Shown piece after piece: positions 2,975 to 39,989 of a stretch of 40,605 nt of DNA. Origin of the DNA: Klebsiella phage vB_KpnP_PRA33; the sequence record KY652723.1; one strand, written 5' to 3'. Numbering within the stretch: position 1 is the stretch's first letter; each line of letters begins with the position of its first letter. The notes below the pieces were generated by a model. It did no database searches and was not told where the DNA came from. It saw only the letters and a list, made by a program, of their open reading frames with translations. Position numbers and translations under genes: made by a program.

Positions 2975-5695
2975 ATGAACGCATTAAACATTGCACGTAA
3001 TGACTTCTCAGAGATTGAACTAGCCGCTATTCCGTACAACATCCTCAGCGAGCACTACGGGGACAAGCTGGCACGTGAGCAGTTAACGCTCGAACATGAA
3101 GCGTACGAGCTGGGCGAGCAGCGTTTCCTGAAGATGCTGGAACGTCAGGTTAAAGCTGGTGAGTTCGCTGACAACGTGGCCGCCAAGCCGCTGGTCTTAA
3201 CGCTGCATCCACAGTTAACCAAACGTATTAACGATTGGAAAGAGGAGCAAGCAACCGCACGTGGTAAGAAGCCTCGCGCATACTATCCGATTAAGCATGG
3301 CGTGGCCTCAGAGTTAGCCCTAAGCATGGGCGCTGAGGTACTCAACGAGAAGCGCGGAGTGTCCAGTGAGGCAATCGCACTGCTGACCATTAAGGTCGTC
3401 TTAGGGACGCTCACAGATGCCTCTAAGGCCACCATCCAGCAGGTATCCTCTCAGTTAGGCAAGGCCCTTGAGGATGAGGCCCGCTTCGGTCGTATCCGTG
3501 AGCAGGAGGCCGCCTACTTCAAGAAGAACGTAGCGGACCAGCTGGACAAGCGCGTAGGCCACGTGTACAAGAAGGCTTTCATGCAGGTAGTCGAGGCCGA
3601 TATGATATCCAAAGGGATGCTTGGTGGGGACAACTGGGCGAGCTGGAAGACCGACGAGCAGATGCACGTAGGGACCAAGCTGTTGGAGCTACTCATTGAG
3701 GGGACTGGTCTGGTGGAGATGACCAAGAACAAGATGGCCGATGGCTCGGACGATGTGACCAGTATGCAAATGGTCCAGCTGGCTCCGGCCTTTGTGGAAC
3801 TCCTGAGTAAACGAGCGGGCGCACTTGCAGGTATCAGTCCTATGTACCAACCGTGCGTAGTCCCTCCGAAACCTTGGGTTGGGACCGTAGGCGGTGGCTA
3901 CTGGTCAGTCGGTCGTCGCCCGCTGGTACTGGTGCGTACCCACTCCAAGAAAGCACTGCGCCGCTATGAAGACGTGCACATGCCTGAGGTATACAAAGCG
4001 GTCAACCTCGCGCAAAACACACCGTGGAAGGTGAACAAGAAGGTGCTGGCGGTAGTCAACGAGATTGTCAACTGGAAGCACTGCCCGGTTGCTGACGTCC
4101 CAGCGATTGAACGCGAAGAGTTACCACCACGCCCAGACGATATCGACACCAACGAGGTGGCACGTAAGGCATGGCGCAAGGAGGCAGCAGCGGTGTACCG
4201 TAAGGACAAGGCCCGACAGTCTCGCCGTTTGTCAATGGAGTTCATGGTCGCACAGGCCAACAAGTTCGCTAACCATAAGGCCATTTGGTTCCCGTACAAC
4301 ATGGACTGGCGCGGACGTGTGTACGCTGTGAGCATGTTCAACCCTCAGGGTAACGACATGACCAAAGGTATGCTGACGCTGGCCAAGGGCAAACCAATCG
4401 GTCTCGATGGGTTCTACTGGCTGAAGATTCATGGTGCAAACTGTGCAGGCGTCGATAAGGTTCCCTTCCCTGAGCGCATCAAGTTCATCGAAGAGAACGA
4501 GGGTAACATTCTGGCGAGCGCAGCCGACCCGCTGAATAACACTTGGTGGACTAAGCAAGATTCACCGTTCTGCTTCTTAGCGTTCTGCTTTGAGTACGCA
4601 GGAGTTAAACATCACGGCCTGAATTACAACTGTTCGCTGCCGCTGGCGTTCGATGGGTCCTGCTCTGGGATTCAACATTTCAGTGCGATGCTCCGCGATT
4701 CTATCGGTGGCCGTGCGGTTAACCTGCTGCCTTCTGATACCGTGCAGGATATCTACAAGATTGTTGCCGACAAGGTTAACGAGGTGCTCAAGCAGCACGT
4801 TGTCAACGGGTCCCAGACGGTGGTCGAGCAGATTGCCGACAAGGATACAGGTGAGTTCCGCGAGAAGGTAACGCTGGGTGAGTCCGTACTGGCTGCGCAG
4901 TGGTTGCAATATGGTGTTACTCGCAAGGTGACTAAGCGTTCAGTCATGACGTTGGCGTATGGTTCCAAAGAGTTCGGCTTCCGCCAGCAAGTTCTTGAGG
5001 ACACCATTCAACCTGCTATTGACAACGGTGAGGGCTTGATGTTCACCCACCCGAACCAAGCGGCTGGCTACATGGCTAAGCTGATTTGGGACGCTGTGAC
5101 CGTGACCGTGGTGGCCGCTGTCGAAGCGATGAACTGGCTGAAGTCTGCCGCTAAGCTACTGGCCGCTGAGGTCAAGGACAAGAAGACCAAAGAGGTACTT
5201 CGTAAGCGCTGCGCAATCCACTGGGTAACACCAGACGGCTTCCCGGTGTGGCAGGAATACCACAAGCGCGACCAAGCGCGCCTGAAGCTAACGTTCTTAG
5301 GTCAGGCCAACGTGTTCATGACGTACAACAAAGGGGACACCAAAGAGATTGACGCGCACAAGCAAGAGTCGGGCATCGCGCCTAACTTTGTGCACTCACA
5401 GGATGGTAGTCACCTGCGCATGACCGTAGTGCACGCTAACGAGGTCTACGGGATTGACTCCTTCGCGCTCATTCACGACTCCTTCGGGACCATTCCGGCA
5501 GACGCTGGGAATCTCTTTAAGGCAGTCCGTGAGACGATGGTCAAGACCTACGAGGACAACGATGTGATTGCAGACTTCTATGACCAGTTCGCTGACCAGC
5601 TGCACGAGTCTCAGCTCGATAAAATGCCAGAAGTTCCGGCCAAAGGCGACCTTAATCTGCGCGATATCTTAGAGTCTGACTTCGCGTTCGCCTAA
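2975..5695 (+). CDS. 1: Single-subunit DNA-directed RNA polymerase (T7 gene 1 homolog)
   Basis: 906 aa with near-complete alignment to T7 RNAP (MN..NIA.NDFS.IELAAIP.N......YG..LAREQL.LEHE.YE.GE.RF.KM.ERQ.KAGE.ADN.AAKPL...; ...HKQESGIAPNFVHSQDGSHLR...; C-terminal ...RDILESDFAFA). Confidence 0.98.
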   Translation: MNALNIARNDFSEIELAAIPYNILSEHYGDKLAREQLTLEHEAYELGEQRFLKMLERQVKAGEFADNVAAKPLVLTLHPQLTKRINDWKEEQATARGKKPRAYYPIKHGVASELALSMGAEVLNEKRGVSSEAIALLTIKVVLGTLTDASKATIQQVSSQLGKALEDEARFGRIREQEAAYFKKNVADQLDKRVGHVYKKAFMQVVEADMISKGMLGGDNWASWKTDEQMHVGTKLLELLIEGTGLVEMTKNKMADGSDDVTSMQMVQLAPAFVELLSKRAGALAGISPMYQPCVVPPKPWVGTVGGGYWSVGRRPLVLVRTHSKKALRRYEDVHMPEVYKAVNLAQNTPWKVNKKVLAVVNEIVNWKHCPVADVPAIEREELPPRPDDIDTNEVARKAWRKEAAAVYRKDKARQSRRLSMEFMVAQANKFANHKAIWFPYNMDWRGRVYAVSMFNPQGNDMTKGMLTLAKGKPIGLDGFYWLKIHGANCAGVDKVPFPERIKFIEENEGNILASAADPLNNTWWTKQDSPFCFLAFCFEYAGVKHHGLNYNCSLPLAFDGSCSGIQHFSAMLRDSIGGRAVNLLPSDTVQDIYKIVADKVNEVLKQHVVNGSQTVVEQIADKDTGEFREKVTLGESVLAAQWLQYGVTRKVTKRSVMTLAYGSKEFGFRQQVLEDTIQPAIDNGEGLMFTHPNQAAGYMAKLIWDAVTVTVVAAVEAMNWLKSAAKLLAAEVKDKKTKEVLRKRCAIHWVTPDGFPVWQEYHKRDQARLKLTFLGQANVFMTYNKGDTKEIDAHKQESGIAPNFVHSQDGSHLRMTVVHANEVYGIDSFALIHDSFGTIPADAGNLFKAVRETMVKTYEDNDVIADFYDQFADQLHESQLDKMPEVPAKGDLNLRDILESDFAFA

Positions 5696-32300: not shown

Positions 32301-33340
32301 TCGGTACTCAGGAGTTGTCGGCCCGTTCTCCTTGGACCAAGATGCTGAACGGTACGGCCAACTACATTCTGGACACTGCCCGTCAGGGTGTGCTCGGGGA
32401 TGTGGCTGGTGCTGCCCTCGGTGGTAAGGGTTCCAAGTTTGGTAAAGAGAACTTCCTAAAAGCTGCCTCTATCAGTCCTGAGCAGTGGAAGGGCATCAAG
32501 CAACTCTTTGTTGACCATGCGACTCGTGACGCTAACGGCCAGTTCACCATCAAGGACAAGAAGGCTTTCAGTCAGGACCCGAGAGCGATGGACCTGTGGC
32601 GTCTTGCCGATAAGGTTGCCGACGAGGCCATGCTGCGGCCCCACAAGGTATCTCAGCAGGATTCCAAGGCGTACGGTGCTGGTGTCAAGATGGCTATGCA
32701 GTTCAAGAACTTCACCATCAAGTCACTCAACGCCAAGTTCATTCGGTCCTTCTACGAGGGCTACAAGAACAACCGCGCAATCGACATGGCGTTGACCCAC
32801 GTGTTGTCTCTGGGTATCGCCGGGACTTACTTTGCGATGCAGGCCCACGTGAAGGCTTACGGTCTCCAAGAGTCTAAACGTAAGGACTACCTGAAGAAAG
32901 CTCTGAACCCGGCCATGCTGGGCTACGCAGCGTTGACTCGAAGTTCCCACACTGGTGCTCCGCTGTCCATCGTCTCGATGATGGCAGGTGCCGCTGGGTT
33001 CCAAGACGCTAACATGCTGCGTTCCACCATCTTACCTAAGGAGGAACAGTTCCAGAAGAAAGACGGGGCGTCAAAAGGTCGGGCCGAGTCGAGCAACCTT
33101 GCAGGTAACTTGGGGTCTCAGATTCCAGCTCTGGGTTACGTAGGGAACGTCATCGCTACCGCTAAGAACGCCTACGGTGTTGCTACAGCACCCAACAAGC
33201 CGACTGAGCGAGACTACATGACTGGCCTGATGAACTCCACCAAGGAGCTTGTGCCTAACGACCCGCTGACCCAACAGCTCATCATGAAAATCTATGAGGC
33301 TAACGGAGTAACCATCAAACAGCAGCCTAAACCCAACTAA
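29375..33340 (+). CDS. 16: Internal virion protein D (gp16) with N-terminal lytic transglycosylase domain
   Basis: 1321 aa (T7 1318). The N-terminal SLT-like motif ...VSYDLLRK......SF.P.A.SKTGP.G.MQFTKATA...GL.VTDG.DD.R.NPELAI.A.AK.L..LV.K..GDELKAALAYNQGEG... is collinear with T7 gp16 to the C-terminus ...LMNSTKELVPNDPLTQQL..KIYEANGV. Confidence 0.96.
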   Translation: MSYDKSKPSDYDGMFQKAADAHGVSYDLLRKLSFNESSFNPKAVSKTGPKGIMQFTKATAQSMGLNVTDGDDDGRYNPELAIDAGAKLLSSLVKKYNGDELKAALAYNQGEGPAGAPQLQAYDKGDFGSISEEGRNYMRKLIDVAQSPHSGALEAFGGITPKGKGIPAEDAFKGISKAGKVGTELPESHGFDVEGVAQEAPNTPYAKDFWEKTGTTLDEYNARSTFFGFGDAADAQIQNSTLGVAFRAARADDGYDVFKDTMTPTRWNSYVPSKEDLQKLRDSGLPPSYYGVVTGGYGENWDALIKLAKDNFEADQRAAEAGTGAKLAAGIVGAGVDPLSYVPLVGVAGKGLKVVNKALRVGAQAGALSVASEGIRTSVAGGEAHYADAALGGLLFGAGMSSLSDAVAAGIRKARGVESVNEFAGPALRMEARETAINTGGHDTSTLPPENFSFEQSHGGVPFANHPTEEGAVVLANGSILSDTNPLNPRTQRDFAEIDPERAAPGIRLGGFTEIGLKTLGSKDAGVRAIAQDLVRSPTGMQSGSSGKFGATASDIHGRLHATDQRMYNQLYDAVDRAMKDPEFSVGEQKMSRRAIRQEVYKRAALAIERPELQADLTKGEREVMDLLKEHFDTKRELMEQPGIFGNATAVSIFPGSRHKGTYVPNVYDRGAKELMAQKLGGPEGLQQAIAQSWLTSYRVRPEVKARVDEYLMELNGYKSVDQVTPEVVQKHAMDKAYGISHTEDFTSSSVIDDNITGLVGIENNSFLEARNMFDSDLPVTLPDGSTFSVNDLRDFDMARIIPAYDRRVNGDISIMGGSGKTTQQLKDEIMALDKRAERKGQLKGEVEALKDTVKILTGRARRNNDTAFETAMRSLNDLAFFAKNFYMGPQNLTEIAGMLAKGNVKAMLHGIPTLRDLATRTSPVSGSELRELHGALFGKELDQLIRPGREDIVQRIREASDTSGAMASVIGTIKFGTQELSARSPWTKMLNGTANYILDTARQGVLGDVAGAALGGKGSKFGKENFLKAASISPEQWKGIKQLFVDHATRDANGQFTIKDKKAFSQDPRAMDLWRLADKVADEAMLRPHKVSQQDSKAYGAGVKMAMQFKNFTIKSLNAKFIRSFYEGYKNNRAIDMALTHVLSLGIAGTYFAMQAHVKAYGLQESKRKDYLKKALNPAMLGYAALTRSSHTGAPLSIVSMMAGAAGFQDANMLRSTILPKEEQFQKKDGASKGRAESSNLAGNLGSQIPALGYVGNVIATAKNAYGVATAPNKPTERDYMTGLMNSTKELVPNDPLTQQLIMKIYEANGVTIKQQPKPN

Positions 33341-33362
33341 TTAGGTAGCACTATAGGGAGAC
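33340..33362 (+). promoter_or_regulatory. Phage promoter (phi17-like, class III consensus)
   Basis: AATTAGGTAGCACTATAGGGAGA. Confidence 0.85.
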
Positions 33363-33400
33363 CCAAGCGGTTTCCCCTTCACATTCAACTTAAGGAGGTC

Positions 33401-36400
33401 ATGATGGACCAAGACATTAAAACAGTCATTCAGTACCCAGTGGGGGCCACTGAGTTCGACATCCCGTTCGACTACCTTTCCCGCAAGTTCGTCAGAGTGT
33501 CACTAGTAGCTGGCGACAACCGCAGACTGCTGAGTAATATCACTGAGTACCGCTACGTGTCTAAGACCAGAGTGAAACTCCTTGTGGAAACTACCGGGTT
33601 CGACCGTGTGGAAATTCGCAGATTCACCTCAGCTTCAGAGCGTGTAGTAGACTTCAGTGATGGCTCGGTTCTCCGTGCAGCCGACCTTAACGTATCTCAA
33701 ATACAGTCGGCACATATCGCAGAGGAAGCACGTGACGGTCAGTATTACAGCCTCAATCTTAACGACCTCGGACAGTTTGACGCTAAGGGTACTAAGATTA
33801 TTAACCTAGGTGCGCCAACGTCCCCACAAGATGCCACAACGAAACTGTATGTGGACACTAAGGACCAAGTCCTTAGCCAGAGAATCCTCGATGAAATCAA
33901 AGCGAGAGCCGATGGGGACATCGAGATGCTCCGTCAGGCAAAAATGTATTCCGACTCCCATATTCCTGGAATTTTGCCGGAGGGGGCCACGTCTGTCGGT
34001 TACTGGTTACCATCTGCAACAGCACTGATGAATGATGACTCTGGACACCCTGTGGTTAGGGTCCGTGGGTTCTACACTGCCGATGATGGTGGCGAGGGTA
34101 GTTGGGTGTGGACCAACGAGGTAGATGCTCAAAAGGCTGGGACACACGACATTTTAACGGCCTCGGTGTATGATAAGGTAGGTCGCCGCTACCGTATCGA
34201 TATCACCATTGGGGCTGTAAACGCGGCACAGAACGGTGCCCGCAGATTAACCTACGCACAAGCTACCGACAGGACCACAGACGACTTCGTGTGCCTAGGT
34301 CAGGTAATCTCTGGTATCACCTCACTGATGCCCCTCCCAGTATCAACTAACAACAGTGAGAGTGGATACATTGGCGATTATCGAATCAACCTAACGATAT
34401 CTCCGGGCCGCTACCGTATCGGTAAAGAGTCTGGTGGAATTGACTCGGGCATGGTAATCAACGCGTGGGGAGCACGAGTGCACGTTGTTGCTGGTAAGTC
34501 TTACACCAGAGCAATTACTGGTAAGTGGATTCACGGTCTGGTGCACGGATACGACCAGATTAAACGTAAGTGGGAGGCTGTTGGTAAACAAGCGTTCTGG
34601 GGCAGTGTTTCCCTGAAGGATGTGGTAATCAACGGCGGCTTCTGGATTGGTGACCACGACCTGCGGACTCCGGCTTCCGAGTGCTCTGCTGGCGTTGGTA
34701 CGCTCCTACTGAACCCTGAAGGCGTAATCCTGAACGGTGTGCACCAGCGCAACTTCAACTGGGTCCATGTCGCTATGGGAGCAATGATTGGGGAGACTTG
34801 GTACCGCACTTCGAAAGGTCGTCACTTTGATGATAACGAACTTGACTACCCTTACGTTATGGACTTTATGACCTCTAACGTTCCGCCAGTTACTCGCCGC
34901 TTCGGTAACTTCAACCGCGTGGCGTATCACGGGTGTAAATTCGAAAGTGGACGTCGTGGCGTGTTCCGCAATGGCGTTGACTGGTCTGGGTGCTACAACA
35001 CCGAAATCATCAACAACATCGCATGGAGAAACCCGGCTAACGCGGACGGAAGTCTTCCAGAGTTCATCGCCGTACTTACGGGTACTGCGTTCCACATGAG
35101 CGCTGGTTACATGGGTCCTGCGGCAGCTAAGGACTTCAACGCAGGAGTTGCCTCTGTCTACAGTTCTACCCAGAACATTAAGTTCGACGCTACGTACACC
35201 GAGTGGACTTATGCTTTCATGATGATTTCCTCATGGGGCTTTGTGGATTCAGCAAGTCGCCTTCAAGGCCTCTCTCTGGACCTTGTGTCTGTGTACAAGG
35301 ATAACTTTGCGGATTACGGTCAGATTATCTTTGAGGAGGGGTGTTTCCCGACTATGTCCGAAGATGGCTCAGCTACTTACCCTGCTGGCTTTAAACACTT
35401 CGACACGCCTCAAGGGCAGTCTCCGTATGTTATTGGCAAGCCTGTACGAGATGTTGGTGCGTTTCGTAACCAAGGGTTCGACTTTAAGTACGCAACCAAC
35501 AACGTGTACCTGACAACTGGAACCGATTGGGAATCGTGGCGAGACCGTCCGTATGCCCGCGAGATGTTCAATGCGTTTGGCTTACAGATTAACTCTGGTA
35601 CTGCCTTCCTACCGTTGCAGAACCCAGCAGATAAGTCTATGACCTGCATCTGGTATAAGGACTTCACTGGGAACTTCGATACCAGAAAGGTTATCCAGTT
35701 CATCACTGCTGCCGCACAAGAGGGGCCTAATGCCGACGAGGCTCTTTACAAGTCATACGCAGAGCGTGTTGTTGACTTTGGTAATGGCTACAAGATGATG
35801 ATGATTCCAAACAAGAGACTGACGGCATGGGATGGTATCTACACCTACGCACGCAACGCAAGCATCACGGTGGAGGTGTCAGCAGATACTCCTATCGCAC
35901 TGATTGCTGTCGAAGCGTACACTGGTGGTGTACCACTGTTCCCTAACGGTGTCCCTAACTACGTTCCGGAATCTTCATGTGCCAGCGTGGTACCAACAGC
36001 GCCTCAGGTTGGGTTCGACTCTAACCTTGGCGGCGGTCTCTTCTTTAACGGTGACGTTGTAGGCCCTTGGGTTCACGTTCGTCGTAACAAGGTTGGCCGC
36101 AGGATTACCCCTCAGGTTACTGCTGGTTCCGTATTGTCCACACGTAGAGTGAGTGGTCAGGGTGTCACCTTAGAGTCTGCCCTGAAGACAACGTTCACAG
36201 CGACGATTATTAGCTCTAATGCTGATACTACGACAATCTCCATCCCAACTGCGTCCCTCCCATCGGTGGCAGTAGGCATCCCGCTGTATGTGCAGTCAGG
36301 TTCATCCACTGGATTCACTGGGCTTGCCCACCTGCACCTCAGGGTGATGCTGGCTAACGGTAAGGCGGACAACAAGTACGTTGTTAACGGTAAGCTTGGG

Positions 36401-37132
36401 GAGGCTGGTGATAACCTCACTATTGACCAGTCTCAGATTGCCGCTTATACGCTTCTTGCTGACTTTACACAGACTACCATCACAGCCGAGACCATGACTC
36501 TCTCCGGTGTTGCGCGTGCGTCTGCGTTCAGGGCCTCTGTAGGTGTGGACGTTGGGTATGGTGGTAGCTCTGAGCCTAAGGTTGTGGCTTTTTACTTTAA
36601 CGGCGGAACCACTTCAACTCACGCCATCACAGCAACTTCCCTTAACGGAATGAGTGTTAACGCCAACGGTAACCTCTCAATCAACGGTCACACGTTCTCT
36701 ACGCAGGACGGTACGCACACACTGGGTACTGCGCAGAACAGGTGGGCGGCTGTATGGTCCGCTAACGGAACGCTCCAGACGTCCGATGAGCGCTTTAAGA
36801 TTCTCGATGGGGATATCCCCGAAGAGCTTCTTGATGCCTGGGAGAAGTACGTGAAGGTTAAAGTGTACCGTATGAAATCTGCGGTCTCCCTGAAGGGTCC
36901 TGATGCTCGTAAGCACGTTGGGTATATTGCCCAGCATGTGATTGAGGCATTGACTCAGGCAGGACTCGATTGGACGAAATACGGTGTGGTTGGTTTCGAT
37001 GAGTGGGATGCTAACGAGTTTGGTCCGGCAGGTGACCGCTACAGCCTTCGCTATGACCAGTGTGCTGCCATTGAGAACGCTGTGCTGGACCGCAGGATTC
37101 GCCGTCTTGAGGAGCTTCTGCTAAACAAATAG
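33401..37132 (+). CDS. 17: Tailspike/tail fibre: gp17 N-terminal adaptor domain, large central beta-helix-like (putative depolymerase) module and C-terminal intramolecular chaperone (peptidase S74) domain
   Basis: 1243 aa. Residues 1-about 150 align with the T7 gp17/K1F gp17 N-terminal domain (...[13 protein letters not shown]......L......YR............G.D.VEIRR.TS...[25 protein letters not shown]). The last about 116 aa (from S1128, nt 36782) match the endosialidase/T5 pb1-type C-terminal chaperone: S-D-E-R-F-K Ser/Lys dyad, ...[11 protein letters not shown]...GLD...[10 protein letters not shown]....YSLRYDQ...RRIRRLEE. Confidence 0.88.
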
Positions 37133-37145
37133 ATAAGGAGGTAAC

Positions 37146-37349
37146 ATGTTGTCCCTAGACTTCAACAATGAAGTTATCAAGGCGGCCCCCATCGCGGGGG
37201 TCGCTGGGGCTGACGGTGTAGCGAGGCTCTTTTGGGGCCTCTCACTCAACGAGTGGTTCTACGTCGCGGCAATCGCCTACACAGTGGTTCAGATTGGTGC
37301 CAAGGTAGTCGATAAAATCATTGACTGGAAGAAAGCTAATAAGGAGTAA
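37146..37349 (+). CDS. 17.5: Holin (class II, gp17.5)
   Basis: 67 aa. MLSLDFNNE.IKAAPI.G....D...RLF.GLSLNEWFYVAAIAYTVVQI..KVVDK.IDWKKANKE is near-identical to T7 gp17.5 (67 aa). Confidence 0.9.
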   Translation: MLSLDFNNEVIKAAPIAGVAGADGVARLFWGLSLNEWFYVAAIAYTVVQIGAKVVDKIIDWKKANKE

Positions 37350-37788: not shown

Positions 37789-38235
37789 ATGCTGGAAATT
37801 ACAAAGAGAATAGTACCGTATCTTGTGGTTATCATGGTGTTCGCCTTCGGGTGGCACTTCGGTTCACAATCTATGGACACCAAGTGGAAGGAGGTAGTAC
37901 AGAATGAGTACGTTAAGAAGCAAACGGCTAGAGCTGAAACTCAGAAAGCGATTGACGCAGTATCGGCTAAGTACCAAGCAGACCTTGAAGGGCTGGAAGG
38001 CAGCACTGATAGGATTATTGCTGATTTGCGTAGCGACAATAAGCGGTTGCGCGTCAAAGTCAAACCTACCAGTGTCCCCGCAGGACCAGACGGTCGATGC
38101 CTCGTTGATGGTTCCGTCGAACTACACGAAGCAACTGCTCGAAGTCTTATCGCAATAACTAAGAAGGCCGACCTCAAAGAGAAGGCCCTACAGGACACTA
38201 TTCGTAAGCTACAGCGGAAAGGAGGTGAACATTGA
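37789..38235 (+). CDS. 18.5: i-spanin (Rz-like, gp18.5)
   Basis: 148 aa with an N-terminal TM. ML.....I.P......VFAFGWH.GS.SMD.KWK..V.NEYVK.......[37 protein letters not shown]... Confidence 0.85.
37985..38158 (+). CDS. 18.7: o-spanin (Rz1-like lipoprotein, gp18.7) embedded in the +1 frame of Rz
   Basis: TTG-initiated [22 protein letters not shown] has a lipobox (ISGC) followed by a Pro-rich mature part. The frame is open from 37904 if an upstream ATG is used instead. Confidence 0.6.
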   Translation: MKGWKAALIGLLLICVATISGCASKSNLPVSPQDQTVDASLMVPSNYTKQLLEVLSQ

Positions 38236-39989
38236 GTAACTCTCAGCAAGCCAAGAACGCCTTAATCATTGCGCAACTGAAGGGTGACTTTGTTGCCTTT
38301 CTCTTTGTGCTCTGGAAGGCCCTGAACCTACCGGAACCAACCAAGTGTCAAATCGACATGGCCAAGTGTCTGGCTAACCCAAAGAACAAGAAGTTTATCC
38401 TTCAGGCTTTCCGTGGTATCGGGAAGTCGTTCATCACGTGTGCGTTCGTAGTGTGGACCCTGTGGCGTGACCCTCAGTTAAAGATACTGATTGTCTCAGC
38501 CTCAAAGGAACGTGCGGACGCTAACTCCATCTTCATCAAGAACATCATCGACTTGTTGCCTTTCCTGAGTGAGCTTAAGCCTCGCCCCGGTCAGCGTGAC
38601 TCCGTGATTAGCTTTGATGTAGGCCCTGCCAAGCCAGACCACAGCCCGTCAGTTAAGTCTGTGGGTATTACGGGTCAGCTTACTGGTAGCCGTGCTGATA
38701 TCATCATTGCGGATGACGTTGAGATTCCCGGTAACTCTGCAACACAGGGTGCTCGTGAGAAACTCTGGACGTTGGTTCAGGAGTTCGCTGCACTGTTGAA
38801 ACCGCTGCCGACTAGCCGTGTTATCTATCTGGGCACCCCTCAGACCGAGATGACGCTCTACAAGGAACTTGAGGACAACCGCGGGTACTCCACCATCATC
38901 TGGCCTGCGCAGTATCCTCGCTCCAAAGAGGAAGACTTGTACTATGGTGACCGACTGGCTCCTATGCTACGTAGCGAGTACGATGAGGACAAAGAGGGTC
39001 TCAGTAGCCAACCTACCGACCCGGTTCGGTTCGACTCTATGGACCTTCAGGAGCGTGAGGTGGAATACGGCAAGGCTGGCTATACGCTTCAGTTCATGCT
39101 CAACCCGAACCTCAGTGACGCCGAGAAGTACCCTCTACGCCTCCGTGACGCCATCGTGTGCGGTCTACAGGCGGACAAGGCCCCAATGCACTACCAGTGG
39201 CTACCGAACCGTCAGAACCGCAATGAGGAGCTTCCTAACGTGGGCATGAAGGGTGATGAGATTTACTCCTTCCATACAGCCTCCAGTAACACTGGTGCGT
39301 ATCAGGGTAAGATTCTGGTCATTGACCCTAGTGGTCGCGGTAAGGATGAGACTGGCTGGTGCGTGCTGTACACCCTCAACGGTTACATCTACTTGATGGA
39401 CGCTGGTGGTACTCGTGGTTACGAAGAGAAGTCCCTTGAGTTCCTCGCTAAGAAAGCCAAACAGTGGCAGGTACAGACTGTGGTCTTCGAGAGTAACTTC
39501 GGTGACGGTATGTTCGGTAACGTATTCCAGCCTGTGCTCCTGAAGCATCACCCAGCGCAACTCGAAGAGATTCGTGCTCGTGGTATGAAAGAGGTCCGCA
39601 TCTGCGATACTCTTGAGCCTGTACTGGCAAGTCACCGCTTGGTCATCCGTGACGAGGTTATCCGACAGGACTACCAGACGGCACGTGATGCAGACGGTAA
39701 GCACGCTCTGAAGTACAGCCTGTTCTACCAGATGACCCGTATGAGTCGTGAGAAGGGCGCTGTGGCACACGACGACCGACTTGATGCGTTAGCATTAGGT
39801 GTCGAGTTCCTACGCTCTACGATGCAGCAGGACGCTGTGAAGATAGAGGCTGAGGTACTTCAGGAGTTCTTAGAGCACCACATGGAGAAACCCCTGAGTA
39901 ACATCTCACAGTTCCGAGCCACCAGCAGCAACGGTGTGGACATCCGGTGGGAAGACGATGGGGACGACTCTATGTTCATCGCGTGGTGA
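38232..39989 (+). CDS. 19: Terminase large subunit (gp19)
   Basis: 585 aa, apparent TTG start 11 nt after GGAGGTG. ...[197 protein letters not shown] is nearly identical to T7 gp19. Confidence 0.97.

What the first reader, a model, noticed from the sequence alone, without database searches (positions are those of the whole stretch)
33401..37132. Modular 1243-aa tailspike: T7 gp17 adaptor, about 950-aa beta-helix-like enzymatic module and a self-cleaving C-terminal chaperone
T7 gp17 is 553 aa, whereas this gene 17 encodes 1243 aa. Only the first about 150 residues are gp17-like (the tail-attachment domain). The C-terminal 116 residues carry the hallmarks of the peptidase S74 intramolecular chaperone of endosialidases, K5 lyase and T5 pb1: a Ser-x4-Lys dyad in QTS|DERFK (Ser at nt 36782-36784, residue about 1128) and HVGYIAQHV...[10 protein letters not shown]...YSLRYDQ...RRIRRLEE. 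The about 950 residues in between are Gly/Asn/Thr/Ser-rich with repetitive beta-strand-like segments, typical of right-handed beta-helix glycanases and lyases. They lack sialidase Asp-boxes, so the substrate (capsule or O-antigen) is unknown. This protein is the host-range determinant and a candidate polysaccharide depolymerase.
Basis: partly seen in the sequence, partly recalled or inferred. Interest (0 to 1): 0.7.

Follow-up and report, generated by a model that had tools for sequence, protein, structure and literature searches.

The report
Known K27 capsule-degrading phage tailspike

Summary
The ORF is real and sits where stated: 33401..37132, + strand, 1243 aa. The start is more likely the second ATG at 33404, giving 1242 aa. 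That 1242-aa product is letter-for-letter ARB12406.1/YP_009787439.1, the tail fibre of Klebsiella phage vB_KpnP_PRA33, and the window has the length of that genome (40,605 bp).

- **Modules confirmed:** Pfam finds the T7 gp17 adaptor (residues 4-153) and Peptidase_S74 (1128-1189). Ser1128 and Lys1133 in SDERFK are invariant in 38 homologues. The modelled C-terminal domain matches solved intramolecular chaperones (3GUD, 3GW6, 4UW8).
- **Prior work:** Latka 2019 described the architecture. Pelka 2026 showed that recombinant PRA33gp45 specifically degrades the K27 capsule.
- **New here:** The published K27dep of Taipeivirus vB_KpnM-20 is 52% identical over residues 199-1206.
- **Still open:** autocleavage, catalytic residues, and hydrolase versus lyase chemistry.

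Verdict: already known, low interest.

The parts
33338..33361 (+). Phage RNA-polymerase promoter (K11 type, TAATTAGGTAGCACTATAGGGAGA) directly upstream of gene 17
   Evidence: The core CACTATAGGGAGA occurs 9 times in the window against 0.01 expected by chance, always on the + strand, and one copy lies at 33349-33361. The extended repeat family D1 includes 33338-33397.
33392..33399 (+). Shine-Dalgarno sequence AAGGAGGT
   Evidence: Read directly from the sequence. It lies 1 nt before ATG 33401 and 4 nt before ATG 33404, which favours 33404 as the start.
33401..37132 (+). Gene 17 / PRA33gp45: tailspike, K27 capsule depolymerase (1243 aa from the first ATG, 1242 aa from 33404)
   Evidence: ORF list. 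The product from 33404 is an exact match to ARB12406.1/YP_009787439.1. PHROG 15695 matches along the full length.
33401..33859 (+). N-terminal T7 gp17-type tail-attachment adaptor (aa 1-153)
   Evidence: Pfam PF03906 covers 4-153, E 3.7e-37. PDB sequence matches: 7xy1 E 8e-66, T7 gp17 7boz E 1.5e-32. DNA similarity to more than 200 other Przondovirus genomes ends at query nt 326-337, about aa 112.
33863..33952 (+). Neck alpha-helices (aa about 155-184), probably a trimeric coiled coil linking adaptor and enzyme
   Evidence: DSSP on the AlphaFold model shows helices at model residues 5-21 and 24-34, which are protein residues 155-171 and 174-184. Confidence is low here because the model is a monomer.
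33995..36439 (+). Central catalytic module (aa 199-1013): irregular right-handed beta-helix with inserted helices and loops, followed by beta-sandwich subdomain(s)
36440..36781 (+). Fibre-like stalk (aa 1014-1127), presumed intertwined triple beta-helix preceding the cleavage site
   Evidence: A profile of the family matches the pre-cleavage stalks of T5 pb1 (4uw8, 260-377) and endoNF (3gw6, 78-275). The segment is Thr/Ala/Gly-rich. The monomer model has low confidence here, as expected for a strand-swapped trimer. The published boundaries are the same (PMC13063336).
36782..36799 (+). Ser1128 to Lys1133 (SDERFK): proposed autoproteolytic dyad, with the scissile bond after Ser1128
   Evidence: Position. 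Both residues are invariant in 38 S74-bearing homologues. The motif aligns to SDERHK at residue 1 of the released phi29 gp12 chaperone, 3GUD.
36782..37129 (+). C-terminal intramolecular chaperone domain, Peptidase S74 (aa 1128-1243)
   Evidence: Pfam PF13884 covers 1128-1189. phmmer against 3GUD gives E 3.4e-18. The model has pLDDT 80-92, and Foldseek finds 3gud at 6e-9 (target TM-score 0.72-0.75), 3gw6, 4uw8 and MyRF 7dc3.

Best explanation
Gene 17 encodes the only receptor-binding protein of the T7-like Klebsiella phage vB_KpnP_PRA33 (genus Przondovirus). It is a homotrimeric tailspike that recognises and degrades the K27 capsular polysaccharide.

Proposed mechanism, with each step marked as shown or inferred:
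1. The gp17-type N-terminal domain (aa 1 to about 153) plugs the trimer into the adaptor-nozzle junction of the tail. This is inferred from homology to T7 gp17 and to solved Klebsiella phage fibres.
2. A helical neck leads to an 815-aa module (aa 199-1013). Its irregular beta-helix core, decorated with helices and loops, carries the glycan-cleaving site, and its beta-sandwich part probably adds glycan binding. The fold is predicted here. The activity and K27 specificity of the whole protein were shown experimentally by Pelka et al. 2026.
3. A fibre-like stalk (aa 1014-1127) ends at Ser1128. The C-terminal S74 chaperone domains of three chains associate, nucleate folding of the stalk and spike, and then each chain cuts itself after Ser1128 using Lys1133 as the general base. 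This would release a 13-kDa fragment and leave a kinetically trapped 123-kDa mature subunit. The step is inferred from conserved residues and fold. It has not been tested for this protein.
4. By stripping the capsule, the spike lets the virion reach the outer membrane, so this module sets host range. The module from aa 199 to the C-terminus is a transferable cassette, found on different N-terminal adaptors in podoviruses, Ackermannviridae, jumbo phages and prophages.
For: **Identity.** Exact sequence match to ARB12406.1. The window length equals the PRA33 genome.

**Context.** The gene sits in a T7-type layout: gp16 with an SLT domain upstream, then a T7-type holin 13 nt downstream, then small terminase, Rz and large terminase. 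It has its own phage promoter. There is no second receptor-binding ORF, which matches 'KP32viruses group B' of Latka 2019.

**Domains.**

**Beta-helix fold.**

**Chaperone fold and dyad.**

**Activity.** The recombinant protein makes halos down to 7 nM, gives a zymogram band on K27 capsular polysaccharide, and is active only on K27 in a serotype panel (PMC13063336).

**Independent support for the module-to-K27 link.**
- K27dep of Taipeivirus vB_KpnM-20, itself experimentally K27-specific (PMC10199534), is 52% identical over aa 199-1206.
- Phages with a gene 17 at least 97% identical include isolates on K27 hosts: KpV768 and K27PH129C1.

**Hint of cleavage in the homologue.** K27dep ran about 24 kDa lighter than expected, against a predicted C-terminal domain of 19.6 kDa.
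Against: - Autocleavage is not shown. The 2026 paper never mentions cleavage. It reports the zymogram band at about 140 kDa, 'corresponding to' the full-length mass, which would fit an uncleaved chain if taken literally. Gel resolution and the tag make 136 and 123 kDa hard to tell apart.
- The catalytic residues and the chemistry are unknown. The closest folds include both hydrolases (6c72) and lyases (9ozd RbmB, 7chu).
- The model is a monomer with mean pLDDT 71 and is poor for aa 850-925 and 1001-1127.
- TM-scores to known depolymerases are only 0.3-0.4.
Confidence: 0.9

Rival explanations
1. The protein is an endosialidase (endo-N-acetylneuraminidase), as several database names and the in-silico part of the 2026 paper suggest.
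For: Homologues are named 'putative endo-N-acetylneuraminidase' (P0004; Henu1). Some homologues give weak Pfam End_tail_spike hits. PMC13063336 cites 'predicted endo-N-acetyl neuraminidase activity'.
Against: - The End_tail_spike hits cover only profile positions about 112-160 of 160. That is the stalk just before the cleavage serine. They fall below the curated cut-off (18.6-22 bits against 25).
- The window protein itself has no such hit and no Asp-box.
- The modelled core is a beta-helix, not a sialidase propeller.
- The demonstrated substrate is the K27 capsule. Klebsiella K antigens are built from Man, Glc, Gal, Fuc, Rha and uronic acids (PMC6856556).
- The label is best explained as annotation carried over from the shared stalk and chaperone.
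Confidence: 0.02
2. The C-terminal S74-like domain is retained in the mature spike, acting as a distal knob or stabiliser, and is not cleaved off.
For: The zymogram band is reported at about 140 kDa, equal to the full-length mass. Cleavage is never mentioned in the paper.
Against: - Ser1128 and Lys1133 are invariant in 38 homologues down to 31% identity in this region.
- The domain starts exactly where the released phi29 gp12 chaperone (3GUD) starts, with the same SDER-x-K motif.
- The homologous K27dep lost about 24 kDa on SDS-PAGE.
- A 13-kDa difference at 136 kDa is hard to see on a zymogram.
Confidence: 0.12
3. The enzyme is a polysaccharide lyase (beta-elimination at a uronic acid), not a glycoside hydrolase as the 2026 paper words it.
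Against: - The best hit, 6c72, and many others (polygalacturonases, GH110, GH55, GH87, Depo32 and K2-2 TSP) are hydrolases.
- The invariant acidic residues D418, E601, D694, D709, D754 and D885 would suit a carboxylate-pair hydrolase.
- Fold alone cannot decide between the two.
Confidence: 0.3

Closest known systems
PRA33gp45 itself (Pelka et al. 2026, Emerg Microbes Infect, PMC13063336) and its group in Latka et al. 2019 (PMC6872550, 'KP32viruses group B')
   Same: It is the identical protein. The published domain map is anchor, alpha-helix-supplemented beta-helix 297-1013, tail-fibre-like 1014-1126 and chaperone 1126-1242, and it agrees with what was found here. K27 specificity has been shown experimentally.
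   Different: Nothing differs in the sequence. This analysis places the start of the transferable module at aa 199, where the paper ends the anchor at 296. It also shows that K27dep is a 52%-identical homologue, whereas the paper calls K27dep 'phylogenetically distant'.
K27dep (ORF91, UCR74083.1) of Taipeivirus vB_KpnM-20 (PMC10199534)
   Same: 52% identity over aa 199-1206. It has the same central module, stalk, Ser-x4-Lys site (SNRDKK, Ser1125) and S74 domain, and the same K27 specificity.
   Different: It has a different N-terminal attachment region (aa 1-195), suited to the branched Ackermannviridae spike complex. Its C-terminal domain is longer (169 aa against 115 aa).
Endosialidase endoNF of coliphage K1F, phi29 gp12 and T5 pb1: carriers of the C-terminal intramolecular chaperone domain (Peptidase S74; PDB 3GW6, 3GUD, 4UW8)
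   Same: The Ser/Lys dyad at the domain boundary, the conserved RxHxGxIAQ core, the helical chaperone fold and a preceding fibre-like stalk. Like K1F, the carrier is a T7-like podovirus whose gp17 adaptor is fused to an enzyme.
   Different: The catalytic part is unrelated to the endoNF sialidase beta-propeller. Cleavage is not shown here.
Beta-helix capsule depolymerase tailspikes: Acinetobacter phage Fri1 gp49 (6C72), Klebsiella Depo32 (7VZ3) and K2-2 TSP (8IQE)
   Different: Identity is only about 10%. TM-scores are 0.3-0.4. The module is much larger and more irregular (815 aa). It matches no Pfam family or PDB sequence.

Membership tests
Phage T7 gp17-type tail-fibre adaptor (Pfam PF03906) | N-terminal domain matches the family HMM above the curated cut-off | tested here: met
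   127.9 bits against a cut-off of 25.2, residues 4-153. phmmer to T7 gp17 7boz gives E 1.5e-32.
Phage T7 gp17-type tail-fibre adaptor (Pfam PF03906) | Gene lies in the gene-17 position of a T7-like genome, after gp16 and before the holin and terminase genes | tested here: met
   gp16 (SLT domain) ends at 33340. The T7-family holin starts at 37146. Small terminase, Rz and large terminase follow. RNAP, gp11 and gp12 are present.
Peptidase S74 / C-terminal intramolecular chaperone domain | HMM match above the curated cut-off at the extreme C-terminus | tested here: met
   PF13884, 35.9 bits against a cut-off of 22, residues 1128-1189.
Peptidase S74 / C-terminal intramolecular chaperone domain | Catalytic Ser and Lys five residues apart at the domain's N-terminal boundary | tested here: met
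   S1128 and K1133 in SDERFK. Both are invariant in 38 homologues. The motif aligns to SDERHK at residue 1 of 3GUD.
Peptidase S74 / C-terminal intramolecular chaperone domain | Fold of the solved chaperone domains | tested here: met
   The model has pLDDT 80-92 over 1140-1243. Foldseek: 3gud E 5.9e-9 with target TM-score 0.72-0.75, 3gw6 E 9e-9, 4uw8 E 1.5e-7, MyRF 7dc3 E 6e-3.
Peptidase S74 / C-terminal intramolecular chaperone domain | Autoproteolytic release of the domain after trimer assembly | not testable with these tools
   Not addressed in PMC13063336. The only indirect hint is a loss of about 24 kDa in the homologue K27dep.
Right-handed parallel beta-helix tailspike depolymerases (pectin-lyase-like fold) | Beta-helix core fold | tested here: met
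Right-handed parallel beta-helix tailspike depolymerases (pectin-lyase-like fold) | Sequence membership in a described beta-helix, pectate-lyase or glycosidase family | tested here: not met
   No Pfam family matches residues 154-1127. Neither the sequence nor the family profile matches any PDB chain in that range.
Right-handed parallel beta-helix tailspike depolymerases (pectin-lyase-like fold) | Capsule-degrading activity | not testable with these tools
   Reported experimentally for this protein: halos, zymogram, K27-only activity (PMC13063336).
Endosialidase (GH58) | Sialidase beta-propeller with Asp-boxes, or a match to the catalytic part of PF12219 | tested here: not met
   No Asp-box. 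No PF12219 hit in this protein. In homologues only the last roughly 45 profile positions match, below the cut-off. The core is a beta-helix.
DepoCatalog class 4B (alpha-helix-containing central domain + tail-fibre part + chaperone) | Beta-helix supplemented with helices and loops, followed by a fibre-like segment and an S74 chaperone | tested here: met
   DSSP shows about ten short helices interspersed among the strands of the core. Stalk and S74 domain. The class assignment is stated in PMC13063336, and the class definition comes from the bioRxiv preprint 10.1101/2025.09.09.675204.
DepoCatalog class 4B (alpha-helix-containing central domain + tail-fibre part + chaperone) | Central domain resembles a mirror-image duplication of the class 4A core | tested here: inconclusive
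   Profile-profile comparison of aa 199-620 with 621-1010 shows no sequence repeat (probability 0.2%). The second half of the model is too uncertain to judge by structure.
Single-RBP 'KP32viruses group B' system (Latka 2019) | One anchor-bearing receptor-binding protein and no second receptor-binding gene | tested here: met
   Only 13 nt separate gene 17 from the holin gene, with no further ORF. PRA33 is listed in group B.

The most novel reading that the evidence does not exclude
The 815-aa central module (aa 199-1013) may be the founding member of a polysaccharide-degrading enzyme family that is not yet described biochemically or structurally.

What supports this:
- It is a rare, irregular and possibly doubled beta-helix with no Pfam or PDB relative by sequence.
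- Only about 43 clusters at 50% identity exist among 1.84 billion protein representatives.
- It moves as one block, together with its stalk and chaperone, between podoviruses, Ackermannviridae, jumbo phages and prophages.
- It keeps K27 specificity across 48% sequence divergence.

Its catalytic residues and its hydrolase or lyase chemistry would then be new. Candidates from conservation are D418, E601, D694, D709, D754 and D885.
Probability: 0.35. Interest if true: 0.35.

Novelty: already known. Interest (0 to 1): 0.13.

Why it matters
The protein matters in practice. It sets the host range of a therapeutic-candidate phage and is itself an anti-virulence enzyme against K27 Klebsiella pneumoniae. 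That has already been recognised and published.

Three gaps are narrower but real:
- whether the chaperone is actually cut off;
- which residues catalyse cleavage, and by what chemistry;
- the true trimeric structure of this atypical (class 4B) core.

Two experimentally K27-specific enzymes share this module at 52% identity. The pair is a useful starting point for mapping specificity-determining residues.

Tried and rejected
1. **PDB sequence search for the middle region.** The whole protein and a 42-sequence family profile both matched only the N- and C-terminal modules. The middle region can be placed by fold only.
2. **Internal duplication in the central domain.** hhalign of the two halves gave probability 0.2%. 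There is no sequence support for the 'mirror-image duplication' described in DepoCatalog, although a structural duplication is not excluded.
3. **Endosialidase reading.** Rejected: no Asp-box, no propeller, and only sub-threshold stalk matches.
4. **Retrieving KY652723 from the annotated collections.** The record is not held. Identity was established by exact protein look-up instead.
5. **Finding the K27 repeat-unit structure, to weigh lyase against hydrolase.** The review table could not be decoded from plain text. The question was left open.
6. **Base composition as a sign of recent transfer.** Gene 17 has GC 52.0% against 52.5% for the genome. Its GC3 is somewhat lower than its neighbours' (55.5% against 62.6-64.2%). 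This is suggestive only.
7. **Sigma-70 promoters and intrinsic terminators around the gene.** Counts were no higher than chance.
Full report
**Observation.** The window contains a 1243-codon ORF at 33401..37132 on the + strand. It opens with ATGATG. The Shine-Dalgarno AAGGAGGT ends 1 nt before the first ATG and 4 nt before the second. The protein read from the second ATG (1242 aa) is an exact match to ARB12406.1/YP_009787439.1, 'tail fibers protein' of Klebsiella phage vB_KpnP_PRA33, found on a 40,605-bp contig. The window is also 40,605 bases, the published PRA33 genome size.
- SDERFK at residues 1128-1133, with the Ser codon at 36782-36784;
- the [26 protein letters not shown] and RRIRRLEE strings;
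- no Asp-box.

**Context.** The window is a complete T7-like (Przondovirus) genome. It encodes:
- a single-subunit RNA polymerase (2975-5695);
- tail tube gp11 and nozzle gp12;
- gp16 with an SLT domain, ending at 33340;
- gene 17;
- 13 nt later, a T7-family holin, then small terminase, Rz and large terminase.

A K11-type phage promoter, one of nine in the window against 0.01 expected, lies at 33338-33361, just upstream of gene 17. No second receptor-binding gene follows. This is the single-spike arrangement that Latka et al. 2019 named 'KP32viruses group B', and they list PRA33 in it explicitly.

**N-terminal module.** Pfam Phage_T7_tail covers residues 4-153 (E 3.7e-37). PDB chains of Klebsiella phage fibres (7xy1, 9m4c, 8x8m) and of T7 gp17 (7boz, 553 aa) match the same part. 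At the DNA level, more than 200 other Przondovirus genomes match only nt 1 to about 337 of the gene, about aa 112, ending just after the AHIAEEARD motif. Only seven records carry the whole gene, at 96.8-98.3% identity. They represent five phages: BIS33, IL33, KpV768, K27PH129C1 and MUC100. So the gene is a mosaic with a conserved attachment head and a swapped remainder.

**C-terminal module.**
- Pfam Peptidase_S74 covers 1128-1189.
- Ser1128 and Lys1133 are invariant in an alignment of 38 S74-bearing homologues. So are G1166, A1169, R1170, H1172, G1174 and Q1178, the [10 protein letters not shown] core.
- The region aligns at 38-45% identity to the released chaperone of phi29 gp12 (3GUD), whose first residues are SDERHK. 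It also aligns to the uncleaved T5 pb1 mutant (4UW8) and to endoNF (3GW6).
- An AlphaFold model of residues 1001-1243 has pLDDT 80-92 over the chaperone. Foldseek retrieves 3gud (E 5.9e-9, target TM-score 0.72-0.75), 3gw6, 4uw8 and the eukaryotic MyRF ICA domain.
- The 114 residues before the serine are Thr/Ala/Gly-rich. As a family profile they match the pre-cleavage stalks of pb1 and endoNF. The monomer model is poor there, as expected for an intertwined trimer.

Membership in the S74 chaperone family is therefore met on every feature that can be computed. The cleavage itself remains an inference.

**Middle region.** No Pfam family and no PDB sequence matches residues about 170-1070, even with a 42-sequence profile. 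An AlphaFold model of residues 151-1030 has mean pLDDT 71. It is above 90 for most of aa 200-500 and weak for aa 850-925. The model shows, in order:
1. two neck helices;
2. a long run of short beta-strands interspersed with about ten short helices;
3. further beta-rich parts.

Only 280-420 residues are aligned in these matches, at about 10% identity. Foldseek agrees (K2-2 TSP 9e-11, Depo32, DpK2), with low TM-scores of 0.3-0.4. It also finds CBM16/CBM22-like beta-sandwich matches of about 170 columns. The 950 residues are, however, a composite of neck, irregular beta-helix core, beta-sandwich part(s) and fibre-like stalk. No sequence repeat links the two halves of the core.

**What is already published.** Pelka et al. 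2026 (PMC13063336) expressed this exact protein as PRA33gp45. They report:
- halos on the host down to 7 nM;
- a zymogram band on purified capsular polysaccharide;
- activity restricted to serotype K27 in a panel;
- anti-biofilm and anti-virulence effects.

Their AlphaFold domain map is anchor 1-296, alpha-helix-supplemented beta-helix 297-1013, tail-fibre-like 1014-1126 and chaperone 1126-1242. They assign it to DepoCatalog class 4B. The paper does not mention cleavage of the chaperone. It reports the active band at about 140 kDa.

**What this analysis adds.**
1. The paper calls the only other K27 enzyme 'phylogenetically distant'. That enzyme is K27dep of Taipeivirus vB_KpnM-20 (PMC10199534). 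In fact it is 52% identical over residues 199-1206, with a different N-terminus. Two independently verified K27 enzymes thus share this module, which ties K27 specificity to residues 199 onward. K27dep ran about 24 kDa lighter than expected, and its predicted C-terminal domain is 19.6 kDa. That is consistent with autocleavage in the family.
2. The central module is rare. Only 43 clusters at 50% identity exist among 1.84 billion representatives, and full-length relatives always align end to end. It occurs behind T7-type adaptors, Ackermannviridae Tail_spike_N domains and other heads, in phages and in Klebsiella prophages.
3. Across 25 sequences down to 29% identity, the invariant acidic residues are D229, D418 (in a G-D-H motif), E601 (Y-T-E-W), D694, D709, D754 and D885. 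These are candidates for catalysis, not assignments.
4. The recurring 'endo-N-acetylneuraminidase' label is explained by sub-threshold matches to the last roughly 45 positions of the endosialidase profile, which is the stalk, plus the shared chaperone. It does not reflect a sialidase domain.

**Mechanism and rivals.** The best explanation (confidence about 0.9 for the overall function) is a trimeric, virion-anchored K27 capsule depolymerase whose folding is driven by a self-removing C-terminal chaperone. Three rivals were weighed:
- an endosialidase (about 0.02);
- a retained, uncleaved C-terminal domain (about 0.12);
- lyase rather than hydrolase chemistry (about 0.3, genuinely undecided, since the structural neighbours include both).

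**Verdict.** The feature is already known: an architecture model in 2019, and experimental characterisation of this very protein in 2026. Interest is low. The remaining questions are incremental: cleavage, catalytic residues and chemistry, and the trimer structure of the atypical core.

Noticed in passing
window 1-40605: The window is the complete genome of Klebsiella phage vB_KpnP_PRA33 (KY652723). Its length equals the published 40,605 bp, and the gene-17 product is an exact match to ARB12406.1. No long terminal direct repeat is present in the sequence as given.
   Followed up: yes
window 2975-5695 (+): A 906-aa single-subunit RNA polymerase (Pfam RNA_pol E 1e-111, RPOL_N E 5e-20). The 2017 genome announcement credits only BIS33 and IL33 with their own RNA polymerase and omits PRA33, which clearly has one too.
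   Followed up: partly
window 417, 6898, 9166, 11262, 20534, 21551, 26066, 33349, 40080 (+): Nine copies of the K11-type phage promoter core CACTATAGGGAGA (at most 1 mismatch), all on the + strand, against 0.01 expected by chance. Three of them share an extended 60-nt context that includes the downstream ribosome-binding site region.
   Followed up: partly
window 33401-33737 versus 33738 onward: There is a sharp mosaic boundary inside the adaptor domain. DNA similarity to more than 200 Przondovirus genomes stops at gene nt 326-337 (about aa 112, after AHIAEEARD). That is about 40 residues before the Pfam adaptor domain ends and about 87 residues before the homology to K27dep begins at aa 199. 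Residues 113-198 seem to have a third history.
   Followed up: partly
window 37789-38235 and 37904-38158 (+): The Rz-like spanin gene (Pfam Phage_lysis) contains an 84-codon ORF in another frame, the usual embedded Rz1 arrangement of T7-like phages. The large terminase ORF (38232-39989) is listed with a TTG start that overlaps the end of the Rz gene.
   Followed up: no
L001:5437-9321 (MZ826764.1 112008-115892): K27dep of Taipeivirus vB_KpnM-20 carries the same central module, stalk and S74 domain at 52% identity, with the cleavage motif SNRDKK at Ser1125. The 2026 PRA33gp45 paper describes the two enzymes as phylogenetically distant.
   Followed up: yes
window 33401-37132 versus neighbouring genes: Third-position GC of gene 17 is 55.5%, lower than in gp16 (62.6%) and gp12 (64.2%). 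This would fit a more recent acquisition of most of the gene.
   Followed up: no
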